A DNA stretch of 64,000 bases from Eledone cirrhosa (Eukaryota). The notes under the pieces were generated by a model. That model was not told the origin of the DNA, made no database searches, and saw only the letters and a program-made list of their open reading frames with translations. Numbering within the stretch: the stretch's first letter is position 1; every line of letters begins with the position of its first letter. Positions 9,354-58,389 of the stretch are shown here, one piece after another. The stretch is taken from assembly GCA_964016885.1 (NCBI GenBank), contig CAXHJY010001477.1, positions 558,001 through 622,000 of the forward strand, read 5' to 3'. Made by a program: the position numbers and the translations under genes.

Positions 9354-9374
9354 GTCCTTCCTCTTTTAACCAAC

Positions 9375-16922: not shown

Positions 16923-16959
16923 ACAACTAGACCAGACTTGAAATAGAAATGTTATGAGA

Positions 16960-17460: not shown

Positions 17461-17877
17461 CAAATACAAAATAGAGGCTGAAATGACAATTGTGAAGGAA
17501 CTGTAAGAGATGGAATAGTGAAGAGAGTATTGCTAGCTATTCTCTGTAGCTTTCACTATAACTGTGAGGTACAATTGAATTACACCATCCAGCCATCAAT
17601 GCAAAGTTTATCCACACCTTATTTCTCTCCACTCTCCTTTTTTCTTTTTGCCATTATGATTTTGTTAATGAATTTTAAAAATTTTAAAAGTCAGGCCAAC
17701 CATGGTAGTTTATTTTAAATAGTAGTGTGTCACTTTGAGAGTGATTTCACTATGTTTGACCCCTTAAAACTGTTGTGAAGGGATAAGAGTAACAACAGAA
17801 ATTGTGAAATTACTAAATATGGTATTACAAAATTCCAGTCTAAATCAATAAGAAAAGACAGAGGCATATTCTATCTG

Positions 17878-20800
17878 GTTGCCCAGACTTAGACAAGGGA
17901 GTATAGGTGTAAGTATTAGACAAGGGAGTTGCCCAGTCTTAGACAAGGGAGTATAGATGTAAATATTGGACAAGGGAGTTACCCAGACTTAGACAATGGT
18001 GTTGTCCAGACTTAGACAAGGGTGTTGTCCAGACTTAGACAAGGGAGTTACCCAGACTTAGAAAAGGGTGTTGTCCAGACTTAGACAAGGGATTTACCCA
18101 GGCTTAGACAAGGGAGTTGCCCAAACATAGACAAGAGAGTTACCCAGATTTAGAGAAGGGAGTTGTCCAGACTTAGACAAGGCAGTTGTCCAGACTTAGA
18201 CAAGGGAGTTACCCAGACTTAGACAAGGGAATATAGGTGTAAATATTAGACAAGGGAGTTTCCCAGACTTAGACAAGGGAGTTTACCAGACTTAGACAAG
18301 GGAGTTCCTAAACTTAGACAAGGGAGTTGTCCAGAATTAAAAAAAGGGTGTTACCCAGACTTAGACAAGGGTGTTGCCCAGACTTAGACAAGGGAGTTGC
18401 CCAGACTTAGACAAGGCAGTTGTCCAGACTTAAACAAGAGTGTTGTCCAGACTTAGACAAGGGATTTGCCCAGACTTTGACAAGGGAGTTACCCATACTT
18501 AGACAAGGGGGTTGCCCAGATTAGAAAAGGGTGTGGTCCAGACTTCGACAAGGGGGTTACCCAGACATAGACAAGGGTGTTGTCCAGACTTAGACAAGGG
18601 TGTTGTCCAGACTTAGACAAGGGTGTTGTCCAGACTTAGACAAGGGAGTTGCTCAGACTTAGACAAGGGAGTTGCCCAGACTTAGACAAGGGTGTTGTCC
18701 AGACTTAGACAAGGGTGTTGTCCAGACTTAGACAAGGGTGTTGTCCAGACTTAGACAAGGGTGTTGTCCAGACTTAGACAAGGGAGTTGACCAGACTTAA
18801 ACAAGGGAGTTGCCCAGACTTAGACAAGCCAGTTGTCCAGACGTAGACAAGGGAGTTACCCAGACTTAGACAAGGGAGTTACCCAGAATTAGACAAGGGA
18901 GTTGTCCAGACTTAGACAAGGGAGTTGTCCAGACTTAGACAAGGGAGTTACCCAGATGTAGACAAGGGAGTTGCCCAGACTTAGACAAGGGAGTTGCCCA
19001 GATCTAGACAAGGGAGTTGTCCAGACTTAGACAAGGGAGTTGCCCACACTTAGACAAGGGAGTTACTCAGACTTAGACAAAGGAGTGTAGGTATAAATAT
19101 TTGACAAGGGAGTTGCCCAGATTGAACAAGGGAGTTCCCAGACTTAGACAAGGGAGTTGCTCAGACTTAGACAAGGGAGTTACCCAGAATTAGACAAGGG
19201 AGTTGCCCAGACTGAGACAAGGCAGTTGTCCAAACTTAAACAAAAGTGTTGCCCAGACATAGACAAGGGAGTTGTCCAGACTTAGACAAGGGAGTTGTCC
19301 AGAATTAGACAAGGGAGTTACCCAGACTTAGACAAGGGAGTTGCCAAGACTAAGACAAGGCAGTTGTCCAAACTTAATCAAAAGTGTTGCCCAGACATAG
19401 ACAAGGGAGTTGTCCAGACTTAGACAAGGGATTTTCCCAGACTTAGACTAGGGAGTTGCCCAGACTTAGACAAGAAGTTGCCCAGACTTAGACAAGGGAG
19501 TTGCCCAGACTTAGACAAGAGTGTTGTCCTGACTTAGACAAGGGAGTTGCCCAGACTTAGACAAGGGTGTTGTCCAGACTTAGACAAGGGTGTTGTCCAG
19601 ACTTAGACAAGGGAGTTGACCAGACTTAAACAAGGGAGTTGCCCAGACTTAGACAAGCCAGTTGTCCAGACGTAGACAAGGTAGTTGCCCAAACTTAGAC
19701 AAGGGAGTTGTCAAGACTTAGACAAGGGAGTTACCCAGACATAGACAAGGGAGTTGTCCAGACTTAGACAACAGTGTTGCCCAGACCTAGACAAGGCAGT
19801 TGTACAGACTTAGACAAGGGAGTTGCCCAGACGTAGACAGGGGAATTGCCCAGACTTTCACAAGGGAGTTGCCCAGACTTAGACAAGGGAGTTGCCCAGA
19901 CTTAGACAAGGGAGTTGTCCAGACTTAGACAAGGGTGTTGTCCAGATTTAGACAAGGGTGTTGTCCAGACTTCGACAAGGGTGTTGTCCAGACTTAGACG
20001 AGGGTGTTGCCCAGACTTAGACAAGGGAGATGTCCAGACTTAGACAAGGGAGTTGTCCAGACTTAGACAAGGGTGTTGCCCAGACTTAGACAAAGGAGTT
20101 GCCCAGACTTAGACAAGGCAGATTCCCAGACTTAGACAAACCAGTGGTCCAGACTTAAACAAGAGTGTTGCCAAAATTAGACAAGGCTGTTACTCAGACT
20201 TAGACAACGGTGTTGTCCAGACTTAGACAAGGGTGTTGTCCAGACTTAGACAACGGTGTTGTCCAGACTTAGACAAGGGTGTTGTCCAGACTTAGACAAG
20301 GGAGTTACCCAGACTTAGACAAGGGAGTTGCCAAGACTGAGACAAGGCAGTTGTCCAAACTTAAACAAAAGTGTTGCCCAGACATAGACAAGGGAGTTGT
20401 CCAGACTTAGACAAGGGATTTTCCCAGACTTAGACTAGGGAGTTGCCCAGACTTAGACAAGAAGTTGCCCAGACTTAGACAAGGGAGTTGCCCAGACTTA
20501 GACAAGAGTGTTGTCCAGACTTAGACAAGGGAGTTGCCCAGACTTAGAAAAGGGTGTTGTCCAGACTTAGACAAGGGATTTACCCAGGCTTAGACAAGGG
20601 TGTTGCCCAAACATAGACAAGAGAGTTACCCAGATTTAGAGAAGGGAGTTGTCCAGACTTAGACAAGGCAGTTGTCCAGACTTAGACAAGGGAGTTACCC
20701 AGACTTAGACAAGGGAATATAGGTGTAAATATTAGACAAGGGAGTTTCCCAGACTTAAACAAGGGAGTTCCTAAACTTAGACAAGGGAGTTGTCCAGAAT

Positions 20801-23800
20801 TAAAAAAAGGGTGTTACCCAGACTTAGACAAGGGTGTTGCCCAGACTTAGACAAGGGAGTTGCCCAGACTTAGACAAGGCAGTTGTCCAGACTTAAACAA
20901 GAGTGTTGTCCAGACTTAGACAAGGGATTTGCCCAGACTTTGACAAGGGAGTTACCCATACTTAGACAAGGGGGTTGCCCAGATTAGAAAAGGGTGTGGT
21001 CCAGACTTCGACAAGGGGGTTACCCAGACATAGACAAGGGTGTTGTCCAGACTTAGACAAGGGTGTTGTCCAGACTTAGACAAGGGAGTTGCTCAGACTT
21101 AGACAGGGGAGTTGCCCAAACTTAGACAAGGGTGTTGTCCAGACTTAGACAAGGGTGTTGTCCAGACTTAGACAAGGGTGTTGTCCAAACTTAGACAAGG
21201 GTGTTGTCCAGACTTAGACAAGGGAGTTGACCAGACTTAAACAAGGGAGTTGCCCAGACTTAGACAAGCCAGTTGTCCAGACGTAGACAAGGGAGTTACC
21301 CAGACTTAGACAAGGGAGTTACCCAGAATTAGACAAGGGAGTTGTCCAGACTTAGACAAGGGAGTTGTCCAGACTTAGACAAGGGAGTTACCCAGATGTA
21401 GACAAGGGAGTTGCCCAGACTTAGACAAGGGAGTTGCCCAGATCTAGACAAGGGAGTTGTCCAGACTTAGACAAGGGAGTTGCCCACACTTAGACAAGGG
21501 AGTTACTCAGACTTAGACAAAGGAGTGTAGGTGTAAATATTTGACAAGGGAGTTGCCCAGATTGAACAAGGGAGTTCCCAGACTTAGACAAGGGAGTTGT
21601 CCAGAATTAGACAAGGGAGTTACCCAGAATTAGACAAGGGAGTTGCCCAGACTGAGACAAGGCAGTTGTCCAAACTTAAACAAAAGTGTTGCCCAGACAT
21701 AGACAAGGGAGTTGTCCAGACTTAGACAAGGGAGTTGTCCAGAATTAGACAAGGGAGTTACCCAGACTTAGACAAGGGAGTTGCCAAGACTAAGACAAGG
21801 CAGTTGTCCAAACTTAATCAAAAGTGTTGCCCAGACATAGACAAGGGAGTTGTCCAGACTTAGACAAGGGATTTTCCCAGACTTAGACTAGGGAGTTGTC
21901 CAGATTAGAAAAGGGTGTGGTCCAGACTTAGACAAGAAGTTGCCCAGACTTAGACAAGGGAGTTGCCCAGACTTAGACAAGAGTGTTGTCCTGACTTAGA
22001 CAAGGGAGTTGCCCAGACTTAGACAAGGGTGTTGTCCAGACTTAGACAAGGGTGTTGTCCAGACTTAGACAAGGGAGTTGACCAGACTTAAACAGGGGAG
22101 TTGCCCAGACTTAGACAAGCCAGTTGTCCAGACGTAGACAAGGTAGTTGCCCAGACTTAGACAAGGGAGTTGTCAAGACTTAGACAAGGGAGTTACCCAG
22201 ACATAGACAAGGGAGTTGTCCAGACTTAGACCACAGTGTTGCCCAGACCTAGACAAGGCAGTTGTACAGACTTAGACAAGGGAGTTGCCCAGACGTAGAC
22301 AGGGGAATTGCCCAGACTTTCACAAGGGAGTTGCCCAGACATAGACAAGGGAGTTGCCCAGACTTAGACAAGGGAGTTGTCCAGACTTAGACAAGGGTGT
22401 TGTCCAGATTTAGACAAGGGTGTTGTCCAGACTTCGACAAGGGTGTTGTCCAGACTTAGACGAGGGTGTTGCCCAGACTTAGACAAGGGAGTTGTCCAGA
22501 CTTAGACAAGGGAGTTGTCCAGACTTAGACAAGGGTGTTGCCCAGACTTAGACAAAGGAGTTGCCCAGACTTAGACAAGGCAGATTCCCAGACTTAGACA
22601 AACCAGTGGTCCAGACTTAAACAAGAGTGTTGCCAAAATTAGACAAGGCTGTTACTCAGACTTAGACAAGGGTGTTGTCCAGACTTAGACAAGGGTGTTG
22701 TCCAGACTTAAATAAGGCAGTTGGCCAGACTTAGACAACGGTGTTGTCCAGACTTAGACAAGGGTGTTGTCCAGACTTAGACAACGGTGTTGTCCAGACT
22801 TAGACAAGGGTGTTGTCCAGACTTAGACAAGGGAGTTGCCCAGACTTAGACAAGGGTGTTGTCCAGACTTAGACAAGGGTGTTGTCCAGACTTAGACAAG
22901 AGTTTTCCCCAGACTTCGACAAGGGAGTTGTCCAGACTTAGACAAGGGAGTTGCCCAGACTTAGACAAGGGAGTTGCCAAGACTGAGACAAGGCAGTTGT
23001 CCAAACTTAAACAAAAGTGTTGCCCAGACATAGACAAGGGAGTTGTCCAGACTTAGACAAGGGATTTTCCCAGACTTAGACTAGGGAGTTGCCCAGACTT
23101 AGACAAGAAGTTGCCCAGACTTAGACAAGGGAGTTGCCCAGACTTAGACAAGAGTGTTGTCCAGACTTAGACAAGGGAGTTGCCCAGACTTAGACAAGGG
23201 TGTTGTCCAGACTTAGACAAGGGTGTTGTCCAGACTTAGACAAGGGAGTTACCCAGAATTAGACAAGGGAGTTGTCCAGACTTAGACAAGGGAGTTGTCC
23301 AGACTTAGACAAGGGAGTTACCCAGATGTAGACAAGGGAGTTGCCCAGACTTAGACAAGGGAGTTGCCCAATTCTAGACAAGGGAGTTGTCCAGACTTAG
23401 ACAAGGGAGTTGCCCACACTTAGACAAGGGAGTTACTCAGACTTGGACAAAGGAGTGTCGTGTAAATATTTGACAAGGGAGTTGCCCAGATTGAACAAGG
23501 GAGTTCCCAGACTTAGACAAGGGAGTTGCCCAGACTGAGACAAGGCAGTTATCCAAACTTAAACAAAAGTGTTGCCCAGACATAGACAAGGGAGTTGTCC
23601 AGACTTAGACAAGGGAGTTGTCCAGAATTAGACAAGGGAGTTACCCAGACTTAGACAAGGGAGTTGCCAAGACTTAGACAAGGGAGTTGCCCAGACTTAG
23701 ACAAGAGTGTTGTCCAGACTTAGACAAGGGAGTTGCCCAGACTTAGACAAGGGTGTTGTCCAGACTTAGACAAGGGTGTTGTCCAGACTTAGACAAGGGA

Positions 23801-26800
23801 GTTGACCAGACTTAAACAAGGGAGTTGCCCAGACTTAGACAAGCCAGTTGTCCAGACGTAGACAAGGTAGTTGCCAAGACTTAGACAAGGGAGTTGTCAA
23901 GACTTAGACAAGGGAGTCACCCAGACATAGACAAGGGAGTTGTCCAGACTTAGACAAGAATGTTGCCCAGACCTAGACAAGGCAGTTGTACAGACTTAGA
24001 CAAGGGAGTTGCCCAGACGTACACAGGGGAATTGCCCAGACTTTCACAAGGGAGTTGCCCAGACGTAGACAAGGGAGTTGCCCAGACTTAGACAAGGGAG
24101 TTGTCCAGACTTAGACAAGGGTGTTGTCCAGATTTAGACAAGGGTGTTGTCCAGACTTCGACAAGGGTGTTGTCCAGACTTAGACGAGGGTGTTGCCCAG
24201 ACTTAGACAAGTGAGTATAGGTGTAAATATTAGACAAGGGAGTTGCCCAGACTTAGACAAGGGAGTTGTCCAGACTTAGACAAGGGAGTTGTCCAGACTT
24301 AGACAAGGGTGTTGCCCAGACTTAGACAAGGCTGTTACTCAGACTTAGACAAGGGTGTTGTCCAGACTTAGACAAGGGTGTTGTCCAGACTTAGATAAGG
24401 CAGTTGGCCAGACTTAGACAACGGTGTTGTCCAGACTTAGACAAGGGTGTTCCCCAGACTTCGACAAGGGAGTTGTCCAGACTTAGACAAGGGAGTTGCC
24501 CAGACTTAGACAAGGCAGTTGTCCAGACGTAGACAAGTGTGTTGCCCAGACTTAGACAAGGGAGTTGTCAAGACTTAGACAAGGGAGTTGCTCAGACTTA
24601 GACAAGGGAGTTGTCCAGACTTAGACAAGGGAGTTGTCCAGACTTAGACAAGGGAGTTGCGCAGACTTAGACAAGGGAGTATAGGTGTAAATATTAGACA
24701 AGGGAGTTGCCCAGACTTAGACAAGGGAGTTGTCCAGACTTAGACAAGGGTGTTGCCCGGACTTAGACAAGGGAGTATAGGTGTAAATATTAGACAAGGG
24801 AGTTGCCCAGACTTAGACAAGGGAGTTGTCCAGACTTAGACAAGGGAGTTGCGCAGACTTGGACAAGGGAGTTACCCAGATGTAGACAAGGGAGTTGCCT
24901 AGACTTAGACAAGGGAGTTGCCCAGATCTAGACAAGGGAGTTGCCCACACTTAGACAAGTGTGTTGTCCAGACTTAGACAAGTGAGCTGTCCAGACTTAG
25001 ACAAGGGAGTTGTCCAGACATAGACAAGGAATTGTCCAGACTTAGACAAGGGAGTTGTCCAGACTTAGACAAGGGAGTTGTCCAGAATTAGACAAGGGAG
25101 TTACCCAGACTTAGACAAGGGAGTTGCCAAGACTAAGACAAGGCAGTTGTCCAAACTTAATCAAAAGTGTTGCCCAGACATAGACAAGGGAGTTGTCCAG
25201 ACTTAGACAAGGGATTTTCCCAGACTTAGACTAGGGAGTTGCCCAGACTTAGACAAGAGTGTTGTCCAGACTTAGACAAGGGAGTTGCCCAGACTTAGAC
25301 AACGGTGTTGTCCAGACTTAGAAAAGGGAGTTGCCCAGACTTAGACAAGGGAGTTGACCAGACTTAGAAAGGGGAGTTGCCCAGACTTAAACAAGGAAGT
25401 TGTGCAGACTTAGACAAGGCAGTTGTCCAGGCTTTGACAAGGGATTTGCCCAGATTTAGACAAGGGAGTTGTCCAGACTTAGACAAGGGAGTTGACCAGA
25501 CTTAGACAAGGCTGTTGTCCAGACTTAGACAAGAGAGTTGCCCATACTTAGACAAGGGAGTTGCCCAGACTTAAACAAGGGATTTGTCCAGACTTGGACA
25601 AGGGATTTGCCCAGACCTAGACAAGGGAGTTGCCCAGACTTAGACAAGGGAGTTGTCCAGACTTAGACAAGGGAGTTACCCAGACTTAGAAAAGGGAATT
25701 ACCAAAACTTAGACAAGGGTGTTGTCCAGGCTTAGACAAGTGTCTTGCTCAGGCTTAGACAACGGAGTTGCCCAGACTTAGACAAAAGAGTTCCCAGACT
25801 TAGACAAGGAAGTTACCCAGACTTAGACTAGGAAGTTACCCAGACTTAGACAAGGAAGTTACCCAGACTTAGACAAGGGTGTTGTCCAGACTTAGACAAG
25901 GGAGTTATCCAGACCTAGTCAAGGGAGTTACCCAGACTTAGACTAGGGAGATGCCCAGACTCAGACAAGGGTGTTGTCCAGACTTAGATAAGGGAGTTGC
26001 CCAGACTTAGACAAGGGTGTTGTCCAGACTTAGACAAGGGAGTTGTCCAGACTTAGAAAAGGGAGTTGCCCAGACTTAGATAAGGGAGTTGCCCAGAATT
26101 AGACAAGGAAGTTGCCCAGACTTAGACAAGAAAGTTGCCCAGGCTTAGACAAGGGAGTTGCCCAGACTTAGAAAAGGGAATCGTCCAGACTTAGATAAGG
26201 GGGTTACCCAGACTTAGACGAGGGTGTTGTCCAGACTTAGCCAAGGGTGTTGTCCAAATTTAGACAAGGGATTTACCAAGAATTAGACAAGGGAGTTGCC
26301 CAGACATAGAGAAGGTAGTTGTACATACTTAAGAAAGGGAGTTGCCCAGACTTAGACAAGGGAGTTGCCCAGACTTAGACAGGGAAGTTACCCAGACTTC
26401 GACAAGCGAGTTGTCCAGACTTAGATAAGGGAGTTGCGCATACCTAGACAAGGGAGTTGCCCAGACTTAGACAAGGGAGTTCACAGACTTAGACAAGGGA
26501 GTTGTCCAGACTTAGACAAGGGAGTTGTCCAGACTTAGAAAAGGGAGTTGCCCAGACTTAGATAAGGGAGTTGCCCAGACTTACACAAGGGTGTTGTCCA
26601 GACTTAGAAAAGGGAGTTGCCCAGACTTAGACAAGGGAGTTGTCCAGACTTAGACAAGGGAGTTGACCAGACTTAGACAAGGCAGTCCTCCAGACTTAGA
26701 CAAGAGAGTTGCCCGGACTTAGACAAGGGAGTTACCCAAACTTAGACAAAGTTGTTGTCCAGATTTAGACAACTGTCTTGCTCAGACTTAGACAACGGAG

Positions 26801-29800
26801 ATGCCGAGACTTAGACAAGGGAGTTCCCAGACTTAGACAAGGGAGTTCCCAGACTTAGACAAGGAAGTTACCCAGATTTAGACAAGGAAGTTACCCAGAC
26901 TTAGACAAGGGTGTTGTCCAGACTTAGACAAGAGTTACCCAGACTTAGACAATGGAGTTGTCCAGAATTATATAAGGGAGTTATCCAGACCTAGTCAAGG
27001 GAGGTAGCCTACTCTTAGACAAGGGAGTTGCCCAGACTTAGAGAAGGGTGTTGTCCAGACTTACATAAAGGAGTTGCCCAGACTTAGACAAGGGTGTTGT
27101 CCAGACTTAGACAAGGGAGTTGCCCAGACTTAGATGAAGGAGTTGCCTAGACTTAGACAAGGGTGTTGTCCAGACTTAGACAACGGTGTTGTCCAGACTT
27201 AGAAGAGGGAGTTGCCCAGACTTAGACAAGGGAGTTGCCCAGAGTTAGACAAGGAGGTTGCCCAGACTTAGACAAAGAAGTTGCCCAGACTTAGACAAGG
27301 GAGTTGCCCAGACTTAGAAATGGGAATAGTCCAGACTTAGATAAGGGGGTTACCCAGGCTTAGACAAGGGTGTTGTCCAGACTTAACCAAGAGTGTTGTC
27401 GAAATTTAGACAAGGGATTTACCAAGAATTAGACAAGGGAGTTGCCCAGACTTAGACAACGGTGTTTTCCAGACTTAGAAAAGGGAGTTGCCCAGACTTA
27501 GACAAGGGAGTTGCCCAGACTTAGAAAGGGGAGTTGCCCAGACTTAAACAAGGAAGTTGTCCAGACTTAGACAAGTTAGTTGTCCAGACTTTGACAAGGG
27601 AGTTGACCAGACTTAGACAAGGCTGTTGTCCAGACTTAGACAAGAGAGTTGCCCATACTTAGACAAGGGAGTTGCCCAGACTTGGACAAGGGATTTGCCC
27701 AGACCTAGACAAGGGAGTTGCCAAGACTTAGACAAGGGAGTTGTCCAGACTTAGACAAGGGAGTTACCCAGACTTAGAAAAGGGAATTACCCAAACTTAG
27801 ACAAGGGTGTTGTCCAGACTTAGACAAGTGTCTTGCTCAGACTTAGACAACGGAGTTGCCCAGACTTAGACAAGGGAGTTCCCAGACTTAGATAAGGAAG
27901 TTACCCAGACTTAGACAAGGAAGTTACCCAGACTTAGACAAGGAGATTACCCAGACTTAGACAAGGGTGTTGTCCAGACTTAGACAAGGGAGTTACCCAG
28001 ACCTAGACAATGAAGTTGTCCAGAATTATACAAGGGAGTTATCCAGACCTAGTCAAGGGAGTTACCCAGACTTAGACTAGGGAGATGCCCAAACTCAGAC
28101 AAGGGTGTTGTACAGACTTAGATAAGGGAGTTGCCCAGACTTAGACAAGGGTGTTGTCCAGACTTAGACAAGGGAGTTGTCCAGACTTAGAAAAGAGTTG
28201 CCCAGACTTAGATAAGGGAGTTGCCCAGATATAGACAAGGGTGTTGTCCAGACTTAAAGAGGGAGTTGCCCAGACTTAGACAAGGGAGTTGCCCAGAGTT
28301 AGACAAGGAAGTTGCCCAGAATTAGACAAGAAAGTTGCCCAGGCTTAGACAAAGGAGTTGCCCAGACTTAGAAAAGGGAATCGTCCAGACTTAGATAAGG
28401 GGGTTACCCAGATTTAGACGAGGGTGTTGTCCAGACTTAGCCAAGGGTGTTGTCCAAATTTAGACAAGGGATTTACCAAGAATTAGACAAGGGAGTTGCC
28501 CAGACCATAGAGAACGTAGTTGTACAGACTTCGACAAGGAAGTTACCCAGACTTCGACAAGGGAGATGCCCAGACTTAGACAAGGAAGTTACCCAGACTT
28601 CGACAAGGGAGTTGTCCAGACTTAGATAAGGGATTTGCGCATACCTAGACAAGGGAGTTGCCCAGATTTAGACAAGGGAGTTGTCGAGACTTAGACAAGG
28701 GAGTTGACCAGACTTAGACAAGGCTGTTGTCCAGACTTAGACAAGAGAGTTGCCCATACTTAGACAAGGGAGTTGCCCAGACTTAAACAAGGGATTTGTC
28801 CAGACTTGGACAAGGGATTTGCCGAGACCTAGACAAGGGAGTTGCCCAGACTTAGACAAGGGAGTTGTCCAGACTTAGACAAGGGAGTTACCCAGACTTA
28901 GAAAAGGGAATTACCAAAACTTAGACAAGGGTGTTGTCCAGACTTAGACTAGTGTCTTGCTCAGGCTTAGACAACGGAGTTGCCCAGACTTAGACAAGGG
29001 AGTTCCCAGACTTAGACAAGGAAGTTACCCAGACTTAGACTAGGAAGTTACCCAGACTTAGACAAGGAAGTTACCCAGACTTAGACAAGGGTGTTGTCCA
29101 GACTTAGACAAGGGAGTTATCCAGACCTAGTCAAGGGAGTTACCCAGACTTAGACTAGGGAGATGCCCAGACTCAGACAAGGGTGTTGTCCAGACTTAGA
29201 TAAGGGAGTTGCCCAGACTTAGACAAGGGTGTTGTCCAGACTTAGACAAGGGAGTTGTCCAGACTTAGAAAAGGGAGTTGCCCAGACTTAGATAAGGGAG
29301 TTGCCCAGACTTAGACAAGGGTGTTGTCCAGACTTAAAGAGGGAGTTGCCCAGACTTAGACAAGGGAGTTGCCCAGAATTAGACAAGGAAGTTGCCCAGA
29401 CTTAGACCAGAAAGTTGCCCAGGCTTAGACAAGGGAGTTGCCCAGACTTAGAAAAGGGAATCGTCCAGACTTAGATAAGGGGGTTACCCAGACTTAGACG
29501 AGGGTGTTGTCCAGACTTAGCCAAGGGTGTTGTCCAAATTTAGACAAGGGATTTACCAAGAATTAGACAAGGGAGTTGCCCAGACATAGAGAAGGTAGTT
29601 GTACATACTTAAGAAAGGGAGTTGCCCAGACTTAGACAAGGGAGTTGCCCAGACTTAGACAGGGAAGTTACCCAGACTTCGACAAGCGAGTTGTCCAGAC
29701 TTAGATAAGGGAGTTGCGCATACCTAGACAAGGGAGTTGCCCAGACTTAGACAAGGGAGTTCACAGACTTAGACAAGGGAGTTGTCCAGACTTAGACAAG

Positions 29801-44800: not shown

Positions 44801-47800
44801 AGTAGTCCAGACTTAGACAAGGGAGTTGCTCAGACTTAGACAAGGCCGTTGTCCAGACTTAAACAAGTGTTGCCCAGACTTAGACAATGGTGTAACTCAG
44901 ACTTAGACAAGGGTGTTGTCCATACTTAGACAAGGGTGTTGTCCAGACTTAGACAAGGGAGTTGTCCAGACTTAAACAAGTGTTGCCCAGACTTAGACAA
45001 TGGTGTAACTCAGACTTAGACAAGGGTGTTGTCCATACTTAGACAAGGGAGTTGTCCAGACTTAGACAAGGGAGTTGTCCAGACTTATACAAGGGAGTTG
45101 AACAGACTTATACAAGGGAGATGCTCAGACTTAGACAGGGGTGTTATCCAGACTTAGACAAGGGAGTTACCCAGACTTAGGCAAGGGTGTTGTCCAGAAT
45201 TAGACAAGGGAGTAGCCCAGACTTAGACAAGGGAGTTGCCCAGACTTAGACAAGGGAGTTACCAAGAATTAGAAAAGGGAGTTGCACAGACTTACACAAG
45301 GGAGTTGCCCAGACTTAGACAAGGGAGTTACCCAGACTTAGACAAGGGAGTTACCAGACTTAGAAAGGGGAGTTGCCCAGACTTAAACAAGGAAGTTGCC
45401 CAGACTTAGACAAGGGAGTTGCCCAGACTTAGAAAAGGGAGTTGTCCAGACTTAGACAAGGGAGTTGCTCAGACTTAGACAAGGGAGTTGCTCAGACCTA
45501 GACAAGGAAGTTACCCAGACTTCGACAAGCGAGTTGTCCAGACTTAGACAAGGGAGTTGCGCATACTTAGACAAGGGAGTTGCCCAGACTTAGACAAGGG
45601 AGTTGCCAAGACTTAGACAAGGGAGTTCCCAGACTTAGACAAGGGAGTCGTCCAGAATTAGACAAGGGTGTTGTCCAGACTTAGACAAGGGTGTTGTCCA
45701 AATTTACACAAGGGATTTACCAAGAATTAGACAAGGGAGTTGACCAGATTTAGACAAGAGAGTTGCCAGACTTAGACAAGGTAGTTGCCCAGACTTATAC
45801 AAGGGAGTTATCCAGACCTAGTCAAGGGAGGTACCCAGACTTAGACAAGGGAGTTGCCCAGACTTAGATAAGGGAGTTGCCCAGACTTAGACAAGGGTGT
45901 TGTCCAGACTTAGACAAGGGAGTTGTCCAGACTTAGAAAAGGGAGTTGCCCAGACTTAGATAAGGGAGTTGCCCAGACTTAGACAAGGGAGTTGCCCAGA
46001 CTTAGATAAGGGAGTTGCCCAGACTTAGACAAGGGTATTGTCCAGACTTAGACAAGGGAGTTGTCCAGACTTAGAAAAGGGAGTTGCCCAGACTTAGATA
46101 AGGGAGTTGCCCAGACTTAGACAAGGGTGTTGTCCAGACTTAGACAACGGTTTTGTCCAGACTTAGAAAAGGGAGTTGCCCAGACTTAGACAAGGGAGTT
46201 GCCCAGAGTTAGACAAGGAAGTTGCCCAGACTTAGACAAGGAAGTTGCCCAGACTCAGACAAGGGAGTTGCCCAGACTTAGAAAAGGGAGTTGTCCAGAC
46301 TTAGACAAGCGAGTTGCCCAGACTTAGACAAGGGAGTTACCAAGACTTAGACAAGGGAATTGTCCAGACTTAGATAAGGGGGTTACCCAGACTTAGACAA
46401 GGGTGTTGTCCAAACTTAGCCAAGGGTGTAGTCCAAATTTAGACAAGGGATTTACCAAGAATTAGACAAGGGAGTCGCCCAGACTTAGACAAGGAATTTA
46501 CCCAGACTTCGACAAGGGAGTTGTCCAGACTTAGATAAGGGAGTTGCCCAGACTTAGACAAGGGAGTTACAAGACTTAGACAAGAAGTTACCCAGACTTA
46601 GACAAGGGAGCCGTCCAGACTTAGACAAGGGAGTTGCACATACTTAGACAAGGGAGTTGCCCAGACTTAGACAAGGGAGTTGCCAAGACTTAGACAAGGG
46701 AGTTCCCAGACTTAGACAAGGGAGTTGTCCAAATTTAGACAAGGGATTTAACAAGAATTAGACAAGGGAGTTGCCCAGACTTAGACAAGGGTGTTGTACA
46801 GACTTAGACAAGGGAGTTACCCAGACTTAGAAAAGGGAGTTACCCAGACTTAGACAAGGGAGTTGCCCAGACTTAGAAAAGGGTTTTGTCCAGATTTCGA
46901 CAAGGGTGTTGTCCAGACTTAGACAAGGGTGTTGTTCAGACTTAGACAAGGGAGTTGCTCAGACTTAGACAAGGCCGTTGTCCAGACTTAGACAATGGTG
47001 TTGCCCAGACTTAGACAAGGGTGTTGTCCAGACTTAGACAAGGGAGTTGTCCAGACTTAGACAAGGGAGTTGTCCAGACTTAGACAAGGGAGTTGTCCAG
47101 ACTTAGACAAGGGAGTTGACCAGACTTATACAAGGGAGTTGTCCAGACTTAGACAAGGGAGTTACAAGACTTAGACAAGAAGTTACCCAGACTTAGACAA
47201 GGGAGCCATCCAGACTTAGACAAGGGAGTTGCACATACTTAGACAAGGGAGTTGCCCAGACTTAGACAAGGGAGTTGCCAAGACTTAGACAAGGGAGTTC
47301 CCAGACTTAGACAAGGGAGTTGTCCAAATTTAGACAAGGGATTTAACAAGAATTAGACAAGGGAGTTGCCCAGACTTAGACAAGGGTGTTGTACAGACTT
47401 AGACAAGGGAGTTACCCAGACTTAGACAAGGAAGTTACCCAGACATCGACAAGGGAGTTGTCCAGACTTAGATAAGGGAGTTGCCCAGACTTAGACAAGA
47501 GAGTTCCCAGACTTAGACAAGGAAGTTACCCAGACTTAGACAAGGGAGTCGTCCAGACTTAGACAAGGGAGTTGCGCATACCTAGAAAGGGAGTTGCCCA
47601 GACTTAGACAAGGGAGTTGCCAAGACTGAGACAAGGGAGTTCCCAGTCTTAGACAAGGGAGTTGTCCAGACTTACAAAAGGGAGTTGCCCAGACTTAGAT
47701 AAGGGAGTTGCCCAGACCTAGACAAGGGAGTTGCCCAGACTTAGACAAGGGTGTTGTCCAGACTTAGACAACGGTGTTGTCCAGACTTAGAAAAGGGAGT

Positions 47801-50800
47801 TGCCCAGACTTAGAAAGGGGAGTTGCCCAGACTTAGACATGGAAGTTGCCCAGACTTAGACAAGGGAGTTGCCCAGACTTAGACAAGGAAGTTACCCAGA
47901 CATCGACAAGGGAGTTGTCCAGACTTAGATAAGGGAGTTGCCCAGACTTAGACAAGAGAGTTCCCAGACTTAGACAAGGGAGTCGTCCAGACTTAGACAA
48001 GGGAGTTGCGCATACCTAGACAAGGGAGTTGCCCAGACTTAGACAAGGGAGTTGCCAAGACTTAGACAAGGGAAATCCCAGACTTAGACAAGGGAGTTGT
48101 CTAGACTTAGACAAGGGAGTTGTCCAGACTTAGAAAAGGGAGTTGCCCAGACTTAGATAAGGGAGTTGCCCAGACTTAGACAAGGGTGTTGTCCAGACTT
48201 AGACAAGGGAGTTGTCTAGACTTAGATAAGGGAGTTGCCCAGACTTAGACAAGGGAGTTCCCAGACTTAGACAAGGGAGTCGTCCAGACTTAGACAAGGG
48301 AGTTGCGCATACTTAGACAAGGGAGTTGCTCAGACTTAGACAAGGGAGTTGCCAAGACTTAGACAAGGGAGTTCCCAGACTTAGACAAGGGAGTAGTCCA
48401 GACTTAGACAAGGGAGTTGCTCAGACTTAGACAAGGCCGTTGTCCAGACTTAAACAAGTGTTGCCCAGACTTAGACAATGGTGTAACTCAGACTTAGACA
48501 AGGGTGTTGTCCATACTTAGACAAGGGTGTTGTCCAGACTTAGACAAGGGAGTTGTCCAGACTTAAACAAGTGTTGCCCAGACTTAGACAATGGTGTAAC
48601 TCAGACTTAGACAAGGGTGTTGTCCATACTTAGACAAGGGAGTTGTCCAGACTTAGACAAGGGAGTTGTCCAGACTTAGACAAGGGAGTTGTCCAGACTT
48701 ATACAAGGGAGTTGACCAGACTTATACAAGGGAGTTGCTCAGACTTAGACAAGGCCATTGTCCAGACTTAAACAAGTGTTGCCCAGACTTAGACAATGGT
48801 GTAACTCAGACTTAGACAAGGGTGTTGTCCATACTTAGACAAGGGAGTTGTCCAGACTTAGACAAGGGAGTTGTCCAGACTTAGACAAGGGAGTTGTCCA
48901 GACTTATACAAGGGAGTTGACCAGACTTATACAAGGGAGATGCTCAGACTTAGACAGGGGTGTTATCCAGACTTAGACAAGGGAGTTACCCAGACTTAGG
49001 CAAGGGTGTTGTCCAGAATTAGACAAGGGAGTAGCCCAGACTTAGACAAGGGAGTTGCCCAGACTTAGACAAGGGAGTTACCAAGAATTAGAAAAGGGAG
49101 TTGCACAGACTTACACAAGGGAGTTGCCCAGACTTAGACAAGGGAGTTACCCAGACTTAGACAAGGGAGTTACCAGACTTAGAAAGGGGAGTTGCCCAGA
49201 CTTAAACAAGGAAGTTGCCCAGACTTAGACAAGGGAGTTGCCCAGACTTAGAAAAGGGAGTTGTCCAGACTTAGACAAGGGAGTTGCTCAGACTTAGACA
49301 AGGGAGTTGCTCAGACCTAGACAAGGAAGTTACCCAGACTTCGACAAGCGAGTTGTCCAGACTTAGACAAGGGAGTTGCGCATACTTAGACAAGGGAGTT
49401 GCCCAGACTTAGACAAGGGAGTTGCCAAGACTTAGACAAGGGAGTTCCCAGACTTAGACAAGGGAGTCGTCCAGAATTAGACAAGGGTGTTGTCCAGACT
49501 TAGACAAGGGTGTTGTCCAAATTTACACAAGGGATTTACCAAGAATTAGACAAGGGAGTTGACCAGATTTAGACAAGAGAGTTGCCAGACTTAGACAAGG
49601 TAGTTGCCCAGACTTATACAAGGGAGTTATCCAGACCTAGTCAAGGGAGGTACCCAGACTTAGACAAGGGAGTTGCCCAGACTTAGATAAGGGAGTTGCC
49701 CAGACTTAGACAAGGGTGTTGTCCAGACTTAGACAAGGGAGTTGTCCAGACTTAGAAAAGGGAGTTGCCCAGACTTAGATAAGGGAGTTGCCCAGACTTA
49801 GACAAGGGAGTTGCCCAGACTTAGATAAGGGAGTTGCCCAGACTTAGACAAGGGTATTGTCCAGACTTAGACAAGGGAGTTGTCCAGACTTAGAAAAGGG
49901 AGTTGCCCAGACTTAGATAAGGGAGTTGCCCAGACTTAGACAAGGGTGTTGTCCAGACTTAGACAACGGTTTTGTCCAGACTTAGAAAAGGGAGTTGCCC
50001 AGACTTAGACAAGGGAGTTGCCCAGAGTTAGACAAGGAAGTTGCCCAGACTTAGACAAGGAAGTTGCCCAGACTCAGACAAGGGAGTTGCCCAGACTTAG
50101 AAAAGGGAGTTGTCCAGACTTAGACAAGCGAGTTGCCCAGACTTAGACAAGGGAGTTACCAAGACTTAGACAAGGGAATTGTCCAGACTTAGATAAGGGG
50201 GTTACCCAGACTTAGACAAGGGTGTTGTCCAAACTTAGCCAAGGGTGTAGTCCAAATTTAGACAAGGGATTTACCAAGAATTAGACAAGGGAGTCGCCCA
50301 GACTTAGACAAGGAATTTACCCAGACTTCGACAAGGGAGTTGTCCAGACTTAGATAAGGGAGTTGCCCAGACTTAGACAAGGGAGTTACAAGACTTAGAC
50401 AAGAAGTTACCCAGACTTAGACAAGGGAGCCGTCCAGACTTAGACAAGGGAGTTGCACATACTTAGACAAGGGAGTTGCCCAGACTTAGACAAGGGAGTT
50501 GCCAAGACTTAGACAAGGGAGTTCCCAGACTTAGACAAGGGAGTTGTCCAAATTTAGACAAGGGATTTAACAAGAATTAGACAAGGGAGTTGCCCAGACT
50601 TAGACAAGGGTGTTGTACAGACTTAGACAAGGGAGTTACCCAGACTTAGAAAAGGGAGTTACCCAGACTTAGACAAGGGAGTTGCCCAGACTTAGAAAAG
50701 GGTTTTGTCCAGATTTCGACAAGGGTGTTGTCCAGACTTAGACAAGGGTGTTGTTCAGACTTAGACAAGGGAGTTGCTCAGACTTAGACAAGGCCGTTGT

Positions 50801-53800
50801 CCAGACTTAGACAATGGTGTTGCCCAGACTTAGACAAGGGTGTTGTCCAGACTTAGACAAGGGAGTTGTCCAGACTTAGACAAGGGAGTTGTCCAGACTT
50901 AGACAAGGGAGTTGTCCAGACTTAGACAAGGGAGTTGACAAGACTTATACAAGGGAGTTGTCCAGACTTAGACAAGGGAGTTACAAGACTTAGACAAGAA
51001 GTTACCCAGACTTAGACAAGGGAGCCATCCAGACTTAGACAAGGGAGTTGCACATACTTAGACAAGGGAGTTGCCCAGACTTAGACAAGGGAGTTGCCAA
51101 GACTTAGACAAGGGAGTTCCCAGACTTAGACAAGGGAGTTGTCCAAATTTAGACAAGGGATTTAACAAGAATTAGACAAGGGAGTTGCCCAGACTTAGAC
51201 AAGGGTGTTGTACAGACTTAGACAAGGGAGTTACCCAGACTTAGACAAGGAAGTTACCCAGACATCGACAAGGGAGTTGTCCAGACTTAGATAAGGGAGT
51301 TGCCCAGACTTAGACAAGAGAGTTCCCAGACTTAGACAAGGAAGTTACCCAGATTTAGACAAGGGAGTCGTCCAGACTTAGACAAGGGAGTTGCGCATAC
51401 CTAGAAAGGGAGTTGCCCAGACTTAGACAAGGGAGTTGCCAAGACTGAGACAAGGGAGTTCCCAGTCTTAGACAAGGGAGTTGTCCAGACTTACAAAAGG
51501 GAGTTGCCCAGACTTAGATAAGGGAGTTGCCCAGACCTAGACAAGGGAGTTGCCCAGACTTAGACAAGGGTGTTGTCCAGACTTAGACAACGGTGTTGTC
51601 CAGACTTAGAAAAGGGAGTTGCCCAGACTTAGAAAGGGGAGTTGCCCAGACTTAGACATGGAAGTTGCCCAGACTTAGACAAGGGAGTTGCCCAGACTTA
51701 GACAAGGAAGTTACCCAGACATCGACAAGGGAGTTGTCCAGACTTAGATAAGGGAGTTGCCCAGACTTAGACAAGAGAGTTCCCAGACTTAGACAAGGGA
51801 GTCGTCCAGACTTAGACAAGGGAGTTGCGCATACCTAGACAAGGGAGTTGCCCAGACTTAGACAAGGGAGTTGCCAAGACTTAGACAAGGGAAATCCCAG
51901 ACTTAGACAAGGGAGTTGTCTAGACTTAGACAAGGGAGTTGTCCAGACTTAGAAAAGGGAGTTGCCCAGACTTAGATAAGGGAGTTGCCCAGACTTAGAC
52001 AAGGGTGTTGTCCAGACTTAGACAAGGGAGTTGTCTAGACTTAGATAAGGGAGTTGCCCAGACTTAGACAAGGGAGTTCCCAGACTTAGACAAGGGAGTC
52101 GTCCAGACTTAGACAAGGGAGTTGCGCATACTTAGACAAGGGAGTTGCTCAGACTTAGACAAGGGAGTTGCCAAGACTTAGACAAGGGAGTTCCCAGACT
52201 TAGACAAGGGAGTAGTCCAGACTTAGACAAGGGAGTTGCTCAGACTTAGACAAGGCCGTTGTCCAGACTTAAACAAGTGTTGCCCAGACTTAGACAATGG
52301 TGTAACTCAGACTTAGACAAGGGTGTTGTCCATACTTAGACAAGGGTGTTGTCCAGACTTAGACAAGGGAGTTGTCCAGACTTAAACAAGTGTTGCCCAG
52401 ACTTAGACAATGGTGTAACTCAGACTTAGACAAGGGTGTTGTCCATACTTAGACAAGGGAGTTGTCCAGACTTAGACAAGGGAGTTGTCCAGACTTAGAC
52501 AAGGGAGTTGTCCAGACTTATACAAGGGAGTTGACCAGACTTATACAAGGGAGTTGCTCAGACTTAGACAAGGCCATTGTCCAGACTTAAACAAGTGTTG
52601 CCCAGACTTAGACAATGGTGTAACTCAGACTTAGACAAGGGTGTTGTCCATACTTAGACAAGGGAGTTGTCCAGACTTAGACAAGGGAGTTGTCCAGACT
52701 TAGACAAGGGAGTTGTCCAGACTTATACAAGGGAGTTGACCAGACTTATACAAGGGAGATGCTCAGACTTAGACAGGGGTGTTATCCAGACTTAGACAAG
52801 GGAGTTACCCAGACTTAGGCAAGGGTGTTGTCCAGAATTAGACAAGGGAGTAGCCCAGACTTAGACAAGGGAGTTGCCCAGACTTAGACAAGGGAGTTAC
52901 CAAGAATTAGAAAAGGGAGTTGCACAGACTTACACAAGGGAGTTGCCCAGACTTAGACAAGGGAGTTACCCAGACTTAGACAAGGGAGTTACCAGACTTA
53001 GAAAGGGGAGTTGCCCAGACTTAAACAAGGAAGTTGCCCAGACTTAGACAAGGGAGTTGCCCAGACTTAGAAAAGGGAGTTGTCCAGACTTAGACAAGGG
53101 AGTTGCTCAGACTTAGACAAGGGAGTTGCTCAGACCTAGACAAGGAAGTTACCCAGACTTCGACAAGCGAGTTGTCCAGACTTAGACAAGGGAGTTGCGC
53201 ATACTTAGACAAGGGAGTTGCCCAGACTTAGACAAGGGAGTTGCCAAGACTTAGACAAGGGAGTTCCCAGACTTAGACAAGGGAGTCGTCCAGAATTAGA
53301 CAAGGGTGTTGTCCAGACTTAGACAAGGGTGTTGTCCAAATTTACACAAGGGATTTACCAAGAATTAGACAAGGGAGTTGACCAGATTTAGACAAGAGAG
53401 TTGCCAGACTTAGACAAGGTAGTTGCCCAGACTTATACAAGGGAGTTATCCAGACCTAGTCAAGGGAGGTACCCAGACTTAGACAAGGGAGTTGCCCAGA
53501 CTTAGATAAGGGAGTTGCCCAGACTTAGACAAGGGTGTTGTCCAGACTTAGACAAGGGAGTTGTCCAGACTTAGAAAAGGGAGTTGCCCAGACTTAGATA
53601 AGGGAGTTGCCCAGACTTAGACAAGGGAGTTGCCCAGACTTAGATAAGGGAGTTGCCCAGACTTAGACAAGGGTATTGTCCAGACTTAGACAAGGGAGTT
53701 GTCCAGACTTAGAAAAGGGAGTTGCCCAGACTTAGATAAGGGAGTTGCCCAGACTTAGACAAGGGTGTTGTCCAGACTTAGACAACGGTTTTGTCCAGAC

Positions 53801-56253
53801 TTAGAAAAGGGAGTTGCCCAGACTTAGACAAGGGAGTTGCCCAGAGTTAGACAAGGAAGTTGCCCAGACTTAGACAAGGAAGTTGCCCAGACTCAGACAA
53901 GGGAGTTGCCCAGACTTAGAAAAGGGAGTTGTCCAGACTTAGACAAGCGAGTTGCCCAGACTTAGACAAGGGAGTTACCAAGACTTAGACAAGGGAATTG
54001 TCCAGACTTAGATAAGGGGGTTACCCAGACTTAGACAAGGGTGTTGTCCAAACTTAGCCAAGGGTGTAGTCCAAATTTAGACAAGGGATTTACCAAGAAT
54101 TAGACAAGGGAGTCGCCCAGACTTAGACAAGGAATTTACCCAGACTTCGACAAGGGAGTTGTCCAGACTTAGATAAGGGAGTTGCCCAGACTTAGACAAG
54201 GGAGTTACAAGACTTAGACAAGAAGTTACCCAGACTTAGACAAGGGAGCCGTCCAGACTTAGACAAGGGAGTTGCACATACTTAGACAAGGGAGTTGCCC
54301 AGACTTAGACAAGGGAGTTGCCAAGACTTAGACAAGGAAGTTGCCCAGACTCAGACAAGGGAGTTGCCCAGACTTAGAAAAGGGAGTTGTCCAGACTTAG
54401 ACAAGCGAGTTGCCCAGACTTAGACAAGGGAGTTACCAAGACTTAGACAAGGGAATTGTCCAGACTTAGATAAGGGGGTTACCCAGACTTAGACAAGGGT
54501 GTTGTCCAAACTTAGCCAATGGTGTAGTCCAAATTTAGACAAGGGATTTACCAAGAATTAGACAAGGGAGTCGCCCAGACTTAGACAAGGAATTTACCCA
54601 GACTTCGACAAGGGAGTTGTCCAGACTTAGATAAGGGAGTTGCCCAGACTTAGACAAGGGAGTTACAAGACTTAGACAAGAAGTTACCCAGACTTAGACA
54701 AGGGAGCCGTCCAGACTTAGACAAGGGAGTTGCACATACTTAGACAAGGGAGTTGCCCAGACTTAGACAAGGGAGTTGCCAAGACTTAGACAAGGGAGTT
54801 CCCAGACTTAGACAAGGGAGTTGTCCAAATTTAGACAAGGGATTTAACAAGAATTAGACAAGGGAGTTGCCCAGACTTAGACAAGGGTGTTGTACAGACT
54901 TAGACAAGGGAGTTACCCAGACTTAGAAAAGGGAGTTACCCAGACTTAGACAAGGGAGTTGCCCAGACTTAGAAAAGGGTTTTGTCCAGATTTCGACAAG
55001 GGTGTTGTCCAGACTTAGACAAGGGTGTTGTTCAGACTTAGACAAGGGAGTTGCTCAGACTTAGACAAGGCCGTTGTCCAGACTTAGACAATGGTGTTGC
55101 CCAGACTTAGACAAGGGTGTTGTCCAGACTTAGACAAGGGAGTTGTCCAGACTTAGACAAGGGAGTTGTCCAGACTTAGACAAGGGAGTTGTCCAGACTT
55201 AGACAAGGGAGTTGACCAGACTTATACAAGGGAGTTGTCCAGACTTAGACAAGGGTGTTGTCCAGACTTAGAGAAGGGAGTTACCCAGACTTAGGCAAGG
55301 GTGTTGTCCAGAATTAGACAAGGGAGTTGCCCAGACTTAGACAAAGGAGTTACCCTGACTTAGACAAGGGTGTTGTCTAGACTTAGACAAGGGAGTTACC
55401 CAGACTTAGACAAGGGTGTTGTCCAGACTTAGACAAGGGTGTTGTCCAGACTTAGACAAGGGAGTTACTAAGAATTAGAAAAGGGAGTTGCGCAGACTTA
55501 CACAAGGGAGTTGCCCAGACTTAGACAAGGGAGTTACCCAGACTTAGACAAGGGAGTTACCCTGACTTAGACAAGGGAGTTACCCTGACTTAGACAAGGG
55601 AGTTACCCAGACTAAGACAAGGGAGTTGCCCAGACTTAGACAAGGGAGTTGCCCAGACTTAGACAAGGCAGTTACCCTGACTTAGACAAGGGTGTTGTCC
55701 AGACTTAGACAAGGGAGTTACCCAGACTTAGACAAGGGTGTTGTCCAGACTTAGACAAGGGTGTTGTCCAGACTTAGACAAGGGTGTTGTCCAGACTTAG
55801 GTAAGGGTGTTGTCCAGAATTAGACAAGGGAGTTGTCCAGAATTAGACAAGGGAGTTGTCCAGACTTAGACAAGGGAGTTCCCCAGACTTGGACAAGGGA
55901 GTTCCCCAGACTTGGATAAGGGAGTTTCAAGACTTAGACAATGGTGTTGCCCAGACTTAGACAAGGGAGTTGTCCAGACTTAGACAAGGGAGTTGCCAGA
56001 AGACAAGGGTGTTGTCCAGACTTAGACAAGGGTGTTGTCCAGACTTAGACAAGGGAGTTGTCTAGACTTAGACAAGGGAGTTGCCAGAAGACAAGGGTGT
56101 TGTCCAGACTTAGACAAGGGAGTTGACCAGACTTGGACAAGGGAGTTTCCCAGATTTGGATAAGGGAGTTGTCAAGACTTAGACAATAGTGTTGTCCAGA
56201 CTTAAACAAGGGAGTTGACCAGACTTAGACAAGGGAGTATAGGTGTAAATATT
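17878..56253. repeat. 38.4-kb array of a 23-bp satellite (AGACTTAGACAAGGGAGTTGCCC), roughly 1,650-1,700 monomers, single orientation, with higher-order repeats
   Basis: Period 23 seen throughout. Copy number is length/23. Diagnostic variant strings recur at about 2.45 kb, about 3.27 kb, 3,591 bp and 3,819 bp. Confidence 0.98.
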
Positions 56254-56744
56254 AAAAACACATATTTTCATATCCAAAGGTGAAGATTAATGACATGAAA
56301 AATTATAATTGTACTAAGAATTATATGTCAGATATTTAACTTTAATCCTGTACTATATGAAACCACATTAGAGATATATTCTTGAATAGTAGAAAACATC
56401 ATTAAGACAGCATCACATTAAATATTGAACTCTTTACACTATTTAATACAGCAAATTCTTATAACAATCTGTCTACTAATAATAATACTATAAACATTTT
56501 AATTATTAAACCTGTTGTTAGATATTTTCTGCTAAATCATTTAAAACAGCACTAGGACTGCATCACATTAAAAATAAGTCTCTACTTTAATAGTGTAAAT
56601 TTCACAACAATCTGTTCACTTGTAAATATATCATAAACATGATATAACAAACCCGTTTTTACATGTTTTCTGTTAAATTATTACAGGTTGTTAAGAGTTA
56701 ATTATAACAAATAGTATAGCTAAAAGAAAGAATTGTATGCTCCC

Positions 56745-58270: not shown

Positions 58271-58389
58271 CTTCGAACTTCTCTCGTGTCTCTCAATTCT
58301 TTAAAAAGGAACTGGAATATCAAATTCAAGAATCGGCAACTTTCTTTTTCAAATTTACCATTAGTATCACCAGACATTTTAAACAATTC
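58271..58389 (-). CDS. PDZD8: PDZD8 coding exon 2: ELFKMSGDTNGKFEKESCRFLNLIFQFLFKELRDTREVR(R)
   Basis: Acceptor tttgcAG, donor GTATTC, 119 nt = 39 codons + 2. Resembles PDZD8 SMP start RETCYFLNATILFLFRELRDT as recalled. Confidence 0.9.

What the first reader, a model, noticed from the sequence alone, without database searches (positions are those of the whole stretch)
17860..56270. The 38-kb satellite looks expanded in place from one single-copy seed
Seen: the array starts ...TCTATCTG|GTTGCCCAGACTTAGACAAGGGAGTATAGGTGTAAGTATTA and ends ...GACTTAGACAAGGGAGTATAGGTGTAAATATTA|AAAACAC. The TATAGGTGTAAATA word that joins the right flank also recurs as a variant monomer, but only in the left about 7 kb (near 17902, 17952, 18233, 19086, 20718, 21526, 23456, 24216, 24680, 24776). 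Inference: the ancestral locus was one CTGGTTGCCCAGACTTAGACAAGGGAGTATAGGTGTAAATATTAAAAAC that amplified locally about 1,700-fold, a readable record of satellite birth.
Basis: partly seen in the sequence, partly recalled or inferred. Interest (0 to 1): 0.72.

Follow-up and report, generated by a model that had tools for sequence, protein, structure and literature searches.

The report
Giant intronic minisatellite grown in place
A 23-base repeat of about 1,670 copies fills 70% of one intron of the PDZD8 gene, likely in an octopod, and its two ends carry the same 41-base word, so it likely grew on the spot from that word, a route already known from a human calcium-channel gene.

Summary
Observation confirmed. 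The array spans 17878-56254 (1,673 units) in PDZD8 intron 2. It begins and ends with the same 41-bp word (39/41 identical), and all ten internal 26/27-bp units lie in the left 7 kb. Only two new junctions (2- and 3-bp microhomology) are needed to derive both unit lengths from that word, which fits growth in place. Growth was staged: units differ 6-9% from consensus, and kb-scale duplications (0.05-1.6% diverged, youngest on the right) built four domains. That explains the left-only long units and makes this an old, still growing array, not a fresh birth. A second organism's contigs cover the left flank and word at low depth without the pile-up seen in the window's own species: a hint, not a shown empty site. 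No genome was held, so 'single-copy' is untested; the right flank is itself an old dispersed repeat. Closest known case: the human CACNA1C 30-mer. An array with the same anatomy and an unexpanded paralog lies in this window, and the scan noted similar in-place arrays on other DNA of this genome. New member of a known kind; interest 0.3.

The parts
17878..56254 (.). Minisatellite array, 38,377 bp, 1,673 units (23-bp unit; ten internal 26/27-bp units; terminal 18-bp partial long unit)
17878..17918 (.). Left copy of the 41-bp word: head H (17878-17888), core C (17889-17900), tail T (17901-17915), 3 further bases
   Evidence: 39/41 to right copy; sequence
56214..56254 (.). Right copy of the 41-bp word, running into the right flank
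   Evidence: sequence
17901..24801 (.). Zone holding all ten long (T+C) units; domain 1 of the array, built partly by a 2.44-2.46 kb duplication
25261..32608 (.). Domain 2, built partly by a 3.2-3.3 kb duplication (borders are approximate change points)
32608..40299 (.). Domain 3, least duplicated part, most singleton variants (21-32% per bin)
40299..55233 (.). Domain 4, youngest: 3.0-3.6 kb duplications and a 3,819-bp unit (3 differences in 238 monomers, 45051-54316)
17700..17877 (.). Left flank, low copy in the window's own species (1-2 times own-contig depth), also covered in organism B
56298..56729 (.). Old dispersed repeat in the right flank with an internal period near 150 bp; inverted copy at 4653-5081 (279 of 411 aligned bases)
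58726..58872 (-). PDZD8 first coding exon (82% to Argonauta hians PDZD8-like P0001, residues 1-49)
58271..58389 (-). PDZD8 second coding exon (88% to P0001)
3672..3750 (-). PDZD8 third coding exon (96% to P0001); intron 2 is 3751-58270, GT-AG, 54,520 bp

Best explanation
This is a 38-kb minisatellite in PDZD8 intron 2 whose two ends carry the same 41-base word, and it likely arose in place when replication slippage at 2- and 3-base microhomologies duplicated parts of that word, after which unequal exchange likely multiplied first single units and later kilobase blocks. In letters: the likely ancestor read H-C-T-flank. Every unit can be built from two new joins: T back to C (27-bp unit, 3 shared bases) and C back to H (23-bp unit, 2 shared bases). 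One serial-slippage event giving H-C-T-C-H-C-T would account for both ends as seen (inferred; two separate events fit too). The 12-bp core then gives homology for gain and loss of units. The 23-bp unit took over right of 24.8 kb, so long units survive only in domain 1. Later block duplications of 1.5-3.8 kb are shown by the sequence, the youngest on the right. The array is likely neutral filler that is spliced out; no function is shown.
For: Shown: same word at both ends, 39/41; unit order at the start is short-long-short-long and the last unit is a partial long unit; the second unit being long has chance 0.6-3%, and none of the 1,372 units before the terminal tail is long; the first unit equals the consensus; the tail has the low GC of the right flank (0.22 vs 0.23); exact repeated runs reach 129 units against 3 in 5 of 5 shuffles, and 53% of units lie in repeated runs of 6 or more; BLASTN of both flanks against the array-masked window found no left-right match other than the 41-bp word; no Rfam match in the window, no stop-free frame over 75 codons in the array. 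Hint: organism B (X4) has depth 7.3-9.2 over 17700-17891 with no excess on the head letters (0.99 of flank depth), where X1 and X2 show 16-18-fold excess. RAD run X6 (12.5 million reads read) has zero depth on 17364-17930 but hundreds on the SINEs. Local precedent: the 41/27-bp array at 5637-6570 has an unexpanded inverted paralog at 7060-7275 with 3 anchor words against 43.
Against: The microhomologies are only 2 and 3 bases, shorter than the 5-10 of the Haber-Louis model and common by chance. No record joining left flank, word and right flank in another organism was seen; the pieces of X4 over 17604-17930 were not among the 8 X4 rows listed (13,192 pieces of all runs not shown), and the tool warns that summed depth is no copy number. 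X4 has about 4 times flank depth on 17892-17930, so its site is not a plain single copy, or the word occurs elsewhere in B. Unit divergence from consensus (6.2% at 20 sites, 9.2% at all 23) is as large as or larger than half the A-B difference in nearby pieces (about 9-11%; orthology of those pieces not shown), so either the array mutates faster than its flank or it began before the split. The right flank is a dispersed repeat. Other arrays of the unit elsewhere in the genome cannot be excluded.
Confidence: 0.75

Rival explanations
1. Growth in place, but the seed is part of an old dispersed element (non-autonomous transposon with internal repeats) whose body is the right flank; other copies carry the word unexpanded, so the seed is not single-copy.
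For: Right flank 56298-56729 matches 4653-5081 inverted, 279 of 411 bases, score 195 against shuffled maximum 81, and has an internal tandem period (score 78 against 60). X4's extra depth on 17892-17930 could come from such copies. Earlier notes of this scan report arrays grown from transposon pieces in this genome (not checked here).
Against: The match begins 43 bases beyond the word; alignments of the word and of the left flank to 5000-5480 and 3760-5480 scored at shuffle level. The paralog stops just short of a SINE-like stretch near 5095 (recognised by eye), so the test is incomplete. Left flank is low copy.
Confidence: 0.13
2. The array is a copy of a dispersed satellite family, inserted here as a block (for example from a circle or carried by a transposon), and the terminal word is a property of the donor array.
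For: Unit divergence looks old relative to the A-B difference; the unit is GC-richer (0.52) than both flanks (0.31, 0.23), the richest 23-bp window level in the nearest 1 kb; no genome-wide search was possible.
Against: An inserted block should break at arbitrary units; both ends fall on the rare long-unit word. The tail is present at low depth with the left flank in organism B. No look-alike among the scan's indexed windows (467 windows of this genome carry notes, a small part of it). No RAD reads on the word. 30% of 23-bp windows in the rest of the intron are as GC-rich.
Confidence: 0.07
3. The origin is as described but part of the length is an assembly artefact: the near-identical 3,819-bp blocks of domain 4 are over- or under-counted.
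For: 3 differences in 238 monomers (0.05%), near the error level of accurate long reads (from my own knowledge).
Against: Domains 1-3 and the older blocks differ by 0.4-1.6% or have no duplicate, so most of the array is resolved by real variants. This rival changes the size, not the origin.
Confidence: 0.05

Closest known systems
Human CACNA1C intron-3 30-mer repeat (TRACT; bioRxiv 10.1101/311795, passages read)
   Same: Intronic array of a short unit, up to tens of kb (3,000 to 30,000+ bp there, 38 kb here), many unit variants, grown from a single copy (shown there by chimpanzee PCR and genome; inferred here).
   Different: Here two unit lengths from one 41-bp word, units 6-9% from consensus, nested kb-scale duplications; no orthologous single copy, length polymorphism or enhancer activity shown.
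Minisatellite birth models of Haber and Louis 1998 and Taylor and Breden 2000 (not read; as described in PMC6947457 and PMC3389668, passages)
   Same: [quoted passage not shown]
   Different: Shared words here are 2 and 3 bases, not 5-10; two joins rather than one; size far above typical minisatellites.
Microhomology-mediated tandem duplication (PMC13167724; search listing and abstract start only)
   Same: Tandem duplication at microhomology as a general, mostly neutral source of repeats.
   Different: That work concerns the first duplication; this array records a further thousand-fold growth.
Transposon-derived minisatellites and satellites (PMC6947457, PMC3389668, passages)
   Same: The array abuts an old dispersed repeat; the 41/27-bp array in this window grew from a repeated element with an unexpanded paralog.
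   Different: The 41-bp word itself was not found in the paralog of the flanking repeat.

Membership tests
Single-locus giant intronic minisatellite born in place (CACNA1C type) | Head-to-tail units of tens of bases, multi-kb, inside an intron | tested here: met
Single-locus giant intronic minisatellite born in place (CACNA1C type) | One copy of the unit at the orthologous site in a close relative | tested here: inconclusive
   Organism B covers left flank and word at low depth, no head excess, about 4-fold on the core-tail part; no linking record seen
Single-locus giant intronic minisatellite born in place (CACNA1C type) | No arrays of the unit at other loci | tested here: inconclusive
   No genome; none elsewhere in the window; no look-alikes in indexed windows; RAD run empty on the word
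Single-locus giant intronic minisatellite born in place (CACNA1C type) | Length varies between individuals or haplotypes | not testable with these tools
   X1-X3 are one sample, possibly the window's source; RAD runs do not cover the site (one of three RAD runs laid)
Single-locus giant intronic minisatellite born in place (CACNA1C type) | Enhancer activity (a property of the CACNA1C array, not of the class) | not testable with these tools
   needs a reporter assay
Haber-Louis origin | Unit flanked by direct repeats of 5-10 bp | tested here: not met
   2 and 3 exact bases at the two joins (3/12 and 5/12 identities)
Taylor-Breden origin | Incomplete terminal unit continuous with the flank | tested here: met
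   Last unit is the first 18 of the 27 bases of the long unit; feature as described in PMC3389668
Dispersed or centromeric satellite family | High abundance at many loci | tested here: inconclusive
   Depth on the word 19-28 times own-contig depth in X1 and X2 against thousands on SINEs, zero in RAD reads, but only 53 bp of repeat were offered
Transposon-borne internal repeat (MITE or Helitron-like) | Array enclosed by element ends; word present in other element copies | tested here: inconclusive
   No inverted left-right match in 421 and 527 bp of flank; right flank is a dispersed repeat whose in-window paralog does not reach the word
Retrozyme or ribozyme-bearing satellite | Hammerhead or other structured RNA in the unit | tested here: not met
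   0 Rfam matches in the window at gathering score; four-unit DNA fold energy (-12.1, -9.6) within shuffled range (mean -10.7, sd 5.5)

The most novel reading that the evidence does not exclude
The locus preserves the full order of a satellite's life across two species: a few 27-bp units already present in the common ancestor and still short in organism B, then a 23-bp unit that took over and ran to 38 kb in one lineage with a raised, transversion-rich mutation rate (ts/tv 0.75), in a genome where many intronic seeds do the same; such arrays would tune expression of their host genes, as the CACNA1C repeat does.
Probability: 0.1. Interest if true: 0.6.

Novelty: new member of a known kind. Interest (0 to 1): 0.3.

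Why it matters
As one locus it is a clear teaching case: seed, two joins, unit takeover and block duplications can all be read from one sequence, at a size above the human CACNA1C array. It answers no open question alone. Its value would rise if orthologous sites in relatives were assembled, because the order of the two joins and the mutation rate inside the array would become directly measurable, and if a genome-wide census showed that this lineage turns intronic seeds into giant arrays unusually often.

Tried and rejected
No whole genome is held, so no genome-wide search for the unit. Pfam gave 0 families for the 3 exon peptides; the gene was named from one homolog among 4 candidates. No RNA holder listed for the right flank and exons; this says nothing on expression. 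The read-laying stretch included SINE pieces that crowded the loose-end, joint and piece tables, so the letters that follow the word in organism B were not shown; 4 of the 8 listed runs were laid. The right junction was not examined in reads, which leaves the empty-site test open. A likeness between the unit and the 38-bp arrays at 1-270 and 2457-2975 scored within shuffles (21 and 23 against maxima 24 and 26): rejected. Coding role: longest stop-free frame 75 codons: rejected. Special hairpin: fold energy within shuffled range: rejected. RNA-editing footprint of an RNA intermediate: A>G and T>C are among the rarer changes (13 and 16 per site against 37-48 for C>A, C>T, G>A): rejected. The idea that the last 42 units belong with domain 1 was not supported: domain 3 fits them best (log-likelihood -293, domain 1 -301, domain 2 -312, domain 4 -321). 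Look-ups in the scan's notes by sequence, near place and relatives were blank, and no note names PDZD8. Literature: searches (8 papers; 0 papers; 15 of 244 listed) showed no title on such an octopod array; one search gave only ape-genome papers.

Full report
Observation. Tandem Repeats Finder reports one 23-bp array at 17878-56238 with 1,672 copies. A cyclic alignment splits 17878-56254 into 1,673 units of 425 types; 1,541 are 23 bp, 88 are 22 bp. All lie in the first 300 units, and none of the next 1,372 is long. The first 41 and last 41 bases match at 39 positions. Outside the array the window holds no copy of the unit: 14-base matches with up to 2 mismatches fall in two 38-bp arrays and two chance places, and that likeness is at shuffle level.

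Setting. The window has no N and no genome is held. The peptide at 58726-58872 (minus) found one homolog among 4 candidates, a PDZD8-like protein of Argonauta hians, 82% identical. That protein maps to three exons at 82, 88 and 96%. Intron 2 runs 3751-58270, GT-AG, 54,520 bp; the array is 70% of it. The host is likely an octopod: inferred from this match, from SINE sequences I recognise from memory, and from the scan's notes on the same genome.

Anatomy of the ends. Write the 41-bp word as head H (11 bp), core C (12), tail T (15) and three more bases. The short unit is H+C, the long unit T+C. The array starts short-long-short-long and ends with a short unit and the first 18 bases of a long unit, which run into the flank. 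Only two joins are absent from the word itself: C back to H, with 2 shared bases, and T back to C, with 3. The tail is as AT-rich as the right flank (GC 0.22 and 0.23; unit 0.52; left flank 0.31). A block cut from a donor array would seldom end this way: the second unit is long with chance 0.6% (3.3% within domain 1), and the rate of long units in the right 31 kb is at most about 0.2%. So the terminal tail is best read as original flank, and the internal tails as copies made early. This is inference from one sequence.

Growth. Units differ from consensus by 9.2% (6.2% without three hypervariable sites), and neighbours are hardly more alike than distant units (15.1% at lag 1, 15.7% at lag 500). 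Order is far from random: exact repeated runs reach 129 units against 3 in each of 5 shuffles, and 53% of units lie in runs of 6 or more. The 36 duplicated segments found include offsets of 2.44-2.46 kb (domain 1), 3.2-3.3 kb (domain 2), 1.5 kb (domain 3) and 3.0-3.8 kb (domain 4), at 0-1.6% divergence; the 3,819-bp block shows 3 differences in 238 units. Rare variants are shared within domains (Jaccard up to 62%) and little between them (mostly 10% or less); change points fall near 25.3, 32.6, 35.8 and 40.3 kb. The left-only long units are thus a domain trait: some are duplicates of each other, and the later domains descend from stretches without them. The array is old in its units and young in its blocks. 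Substitutions run mostly from G and C to A and T, with ts/tv 0.75 over 1,255 context-distinct changes at 20 sites; with so few sites and no matched control this is a remark, not a result. There is no excess of A>G or T>C.

Other organisms. A run search with the right flank and exons listed 8 runs: three of one sample of organism A (shares 0.53, 0.39, 0.27, possibly the window's source), one of organism B (0.13), a small run and three RAD runs of A. I laid four of them on 16500-17930. X1 and X2 hold 16500-17927 in one contig without a difference. X4 (organism B) has pieces about 9-11% different at 16805-17221, 17230-17351 and 17415-17515, a gap at 17556-17603, depth 7.3-9.2 over 17700-17891 and 31.5 over 17892-17930. 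Relative to flank depth, X4 has no excess on the head letters where X1 and X2 have 16-18-fold, and about 4-fold on the core-tail part where they have 19-28-fold. X1 and X2, but not X4, show the gapped alignments that short-unit tandems give over the long unit (table 4, partly shown). This fits a site in B with the word and a few long units but no large short-unit array. It is a hint only: summed depth is no copy number, the X4 records over this stretch were not among those listed, and no record linking to the right flank was seen. The RAD run X6 had zero depth on 17364-17930 and hundreds on SINEs, weak evidence against a widely scattered family. The right junction was not examined in reads.

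Against the simplest reading. The right flank is not unique: 56298-56729 matches 4653-5081 inverted (279 of 411; score 195, shuffled maximum 81) and has an internal period near 150 bp. The word was not found in that paralog, which ends short of it. Unit divergence is as large as or larger than half the A-B difference, so the array is either older than it looks from B's low depth or mutates faster than its flank. The microhomologies are short enough to be chance.

How ordinary is it. In this window the 41/27-bp array at 5637-6570 has an unexpanded inverted paralog at 7060-7275 that aligns to both of its sides (167 of 193 and 77 of 95) and holds 3 anchor words against 43: the same two-length anatomy, with its seed visible. 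The scan's notes on other DNA of this genome describe several arrays read as grown in place (AI notes, not checked here). In print, the CACNA1C 30-mer is single in chimpanzee and 3,000 to over 30,000 bp in humans, and acts as an enhancer in a reporter test (10.1101/311795, passages; its supplements were not seen and are not needed for this claim). The birth models are summarised in PMC6947457 and PMC3389668 (passages); the primary papers were not read. The Haber-Louis feature (5-10 bp repeats) is not met; the incomplete terminal unit is. My searches showed no title on this array or on octopod arrays of this kind; most subscription papers are outside the library.

Verdict. Real feature, correctly seen. 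Growth in place from the shared word 0.75, with a further 0.13 for growth in place from a word that belongs to a dispersed element; insertion 0.07. Likely neutral: no Rfam match, no long frame, no unusual fold. New member of a known kind; interest 0.3.

Noticed in passing
window 5637-6570 and 7060-7275: A compound 41/27/68-bp minisatellite whose unexpanded paralog lies 500 bp away on the other strand; it aligns to both sides of the array and has 3 anchor words against 43. The element looks like the 3' end of an RTE-type LINE (from memory, not tested).
   Followed up: partly
window 7301-13323: A 5.6-kb LINE with two long frames (stop-free stretches of 396, 667 and 348 codons) sits between two parts of a 60/72-bp minisatellite. 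It resembles the Tx1-type insertion into a 72-bp repeat noted elsewhere in this genome (e1-9516603); clade named from that note and from memory.
   Followed up: no
window 1-2975: A LINE fragment (about 271-2456; stop-free stretches of 179 and 296 codons) is flanked on both sides by the same 38-bp minisatellite.
   Followed up: no
window 56298-56729 and 4653-5081: Two inverted copies of an old AT-rich dispersed repeat with an internal period near 150 bp in the same intron, 68% alike.
   Followed up: partly
window 13823-15194, 60518-61137, 6622-6888: Further young minisatellites of 99, 38 and 21 bp (93-99% matches); with the main array, eight arrays cover about 42 kb of the 64-kb window.
   Followed up: no
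window 16940-17520: A decayed reverse-transcriptase remnant left of the array, seen by eye in the sequence, also covered by organism B pieces.
   Followed up: no
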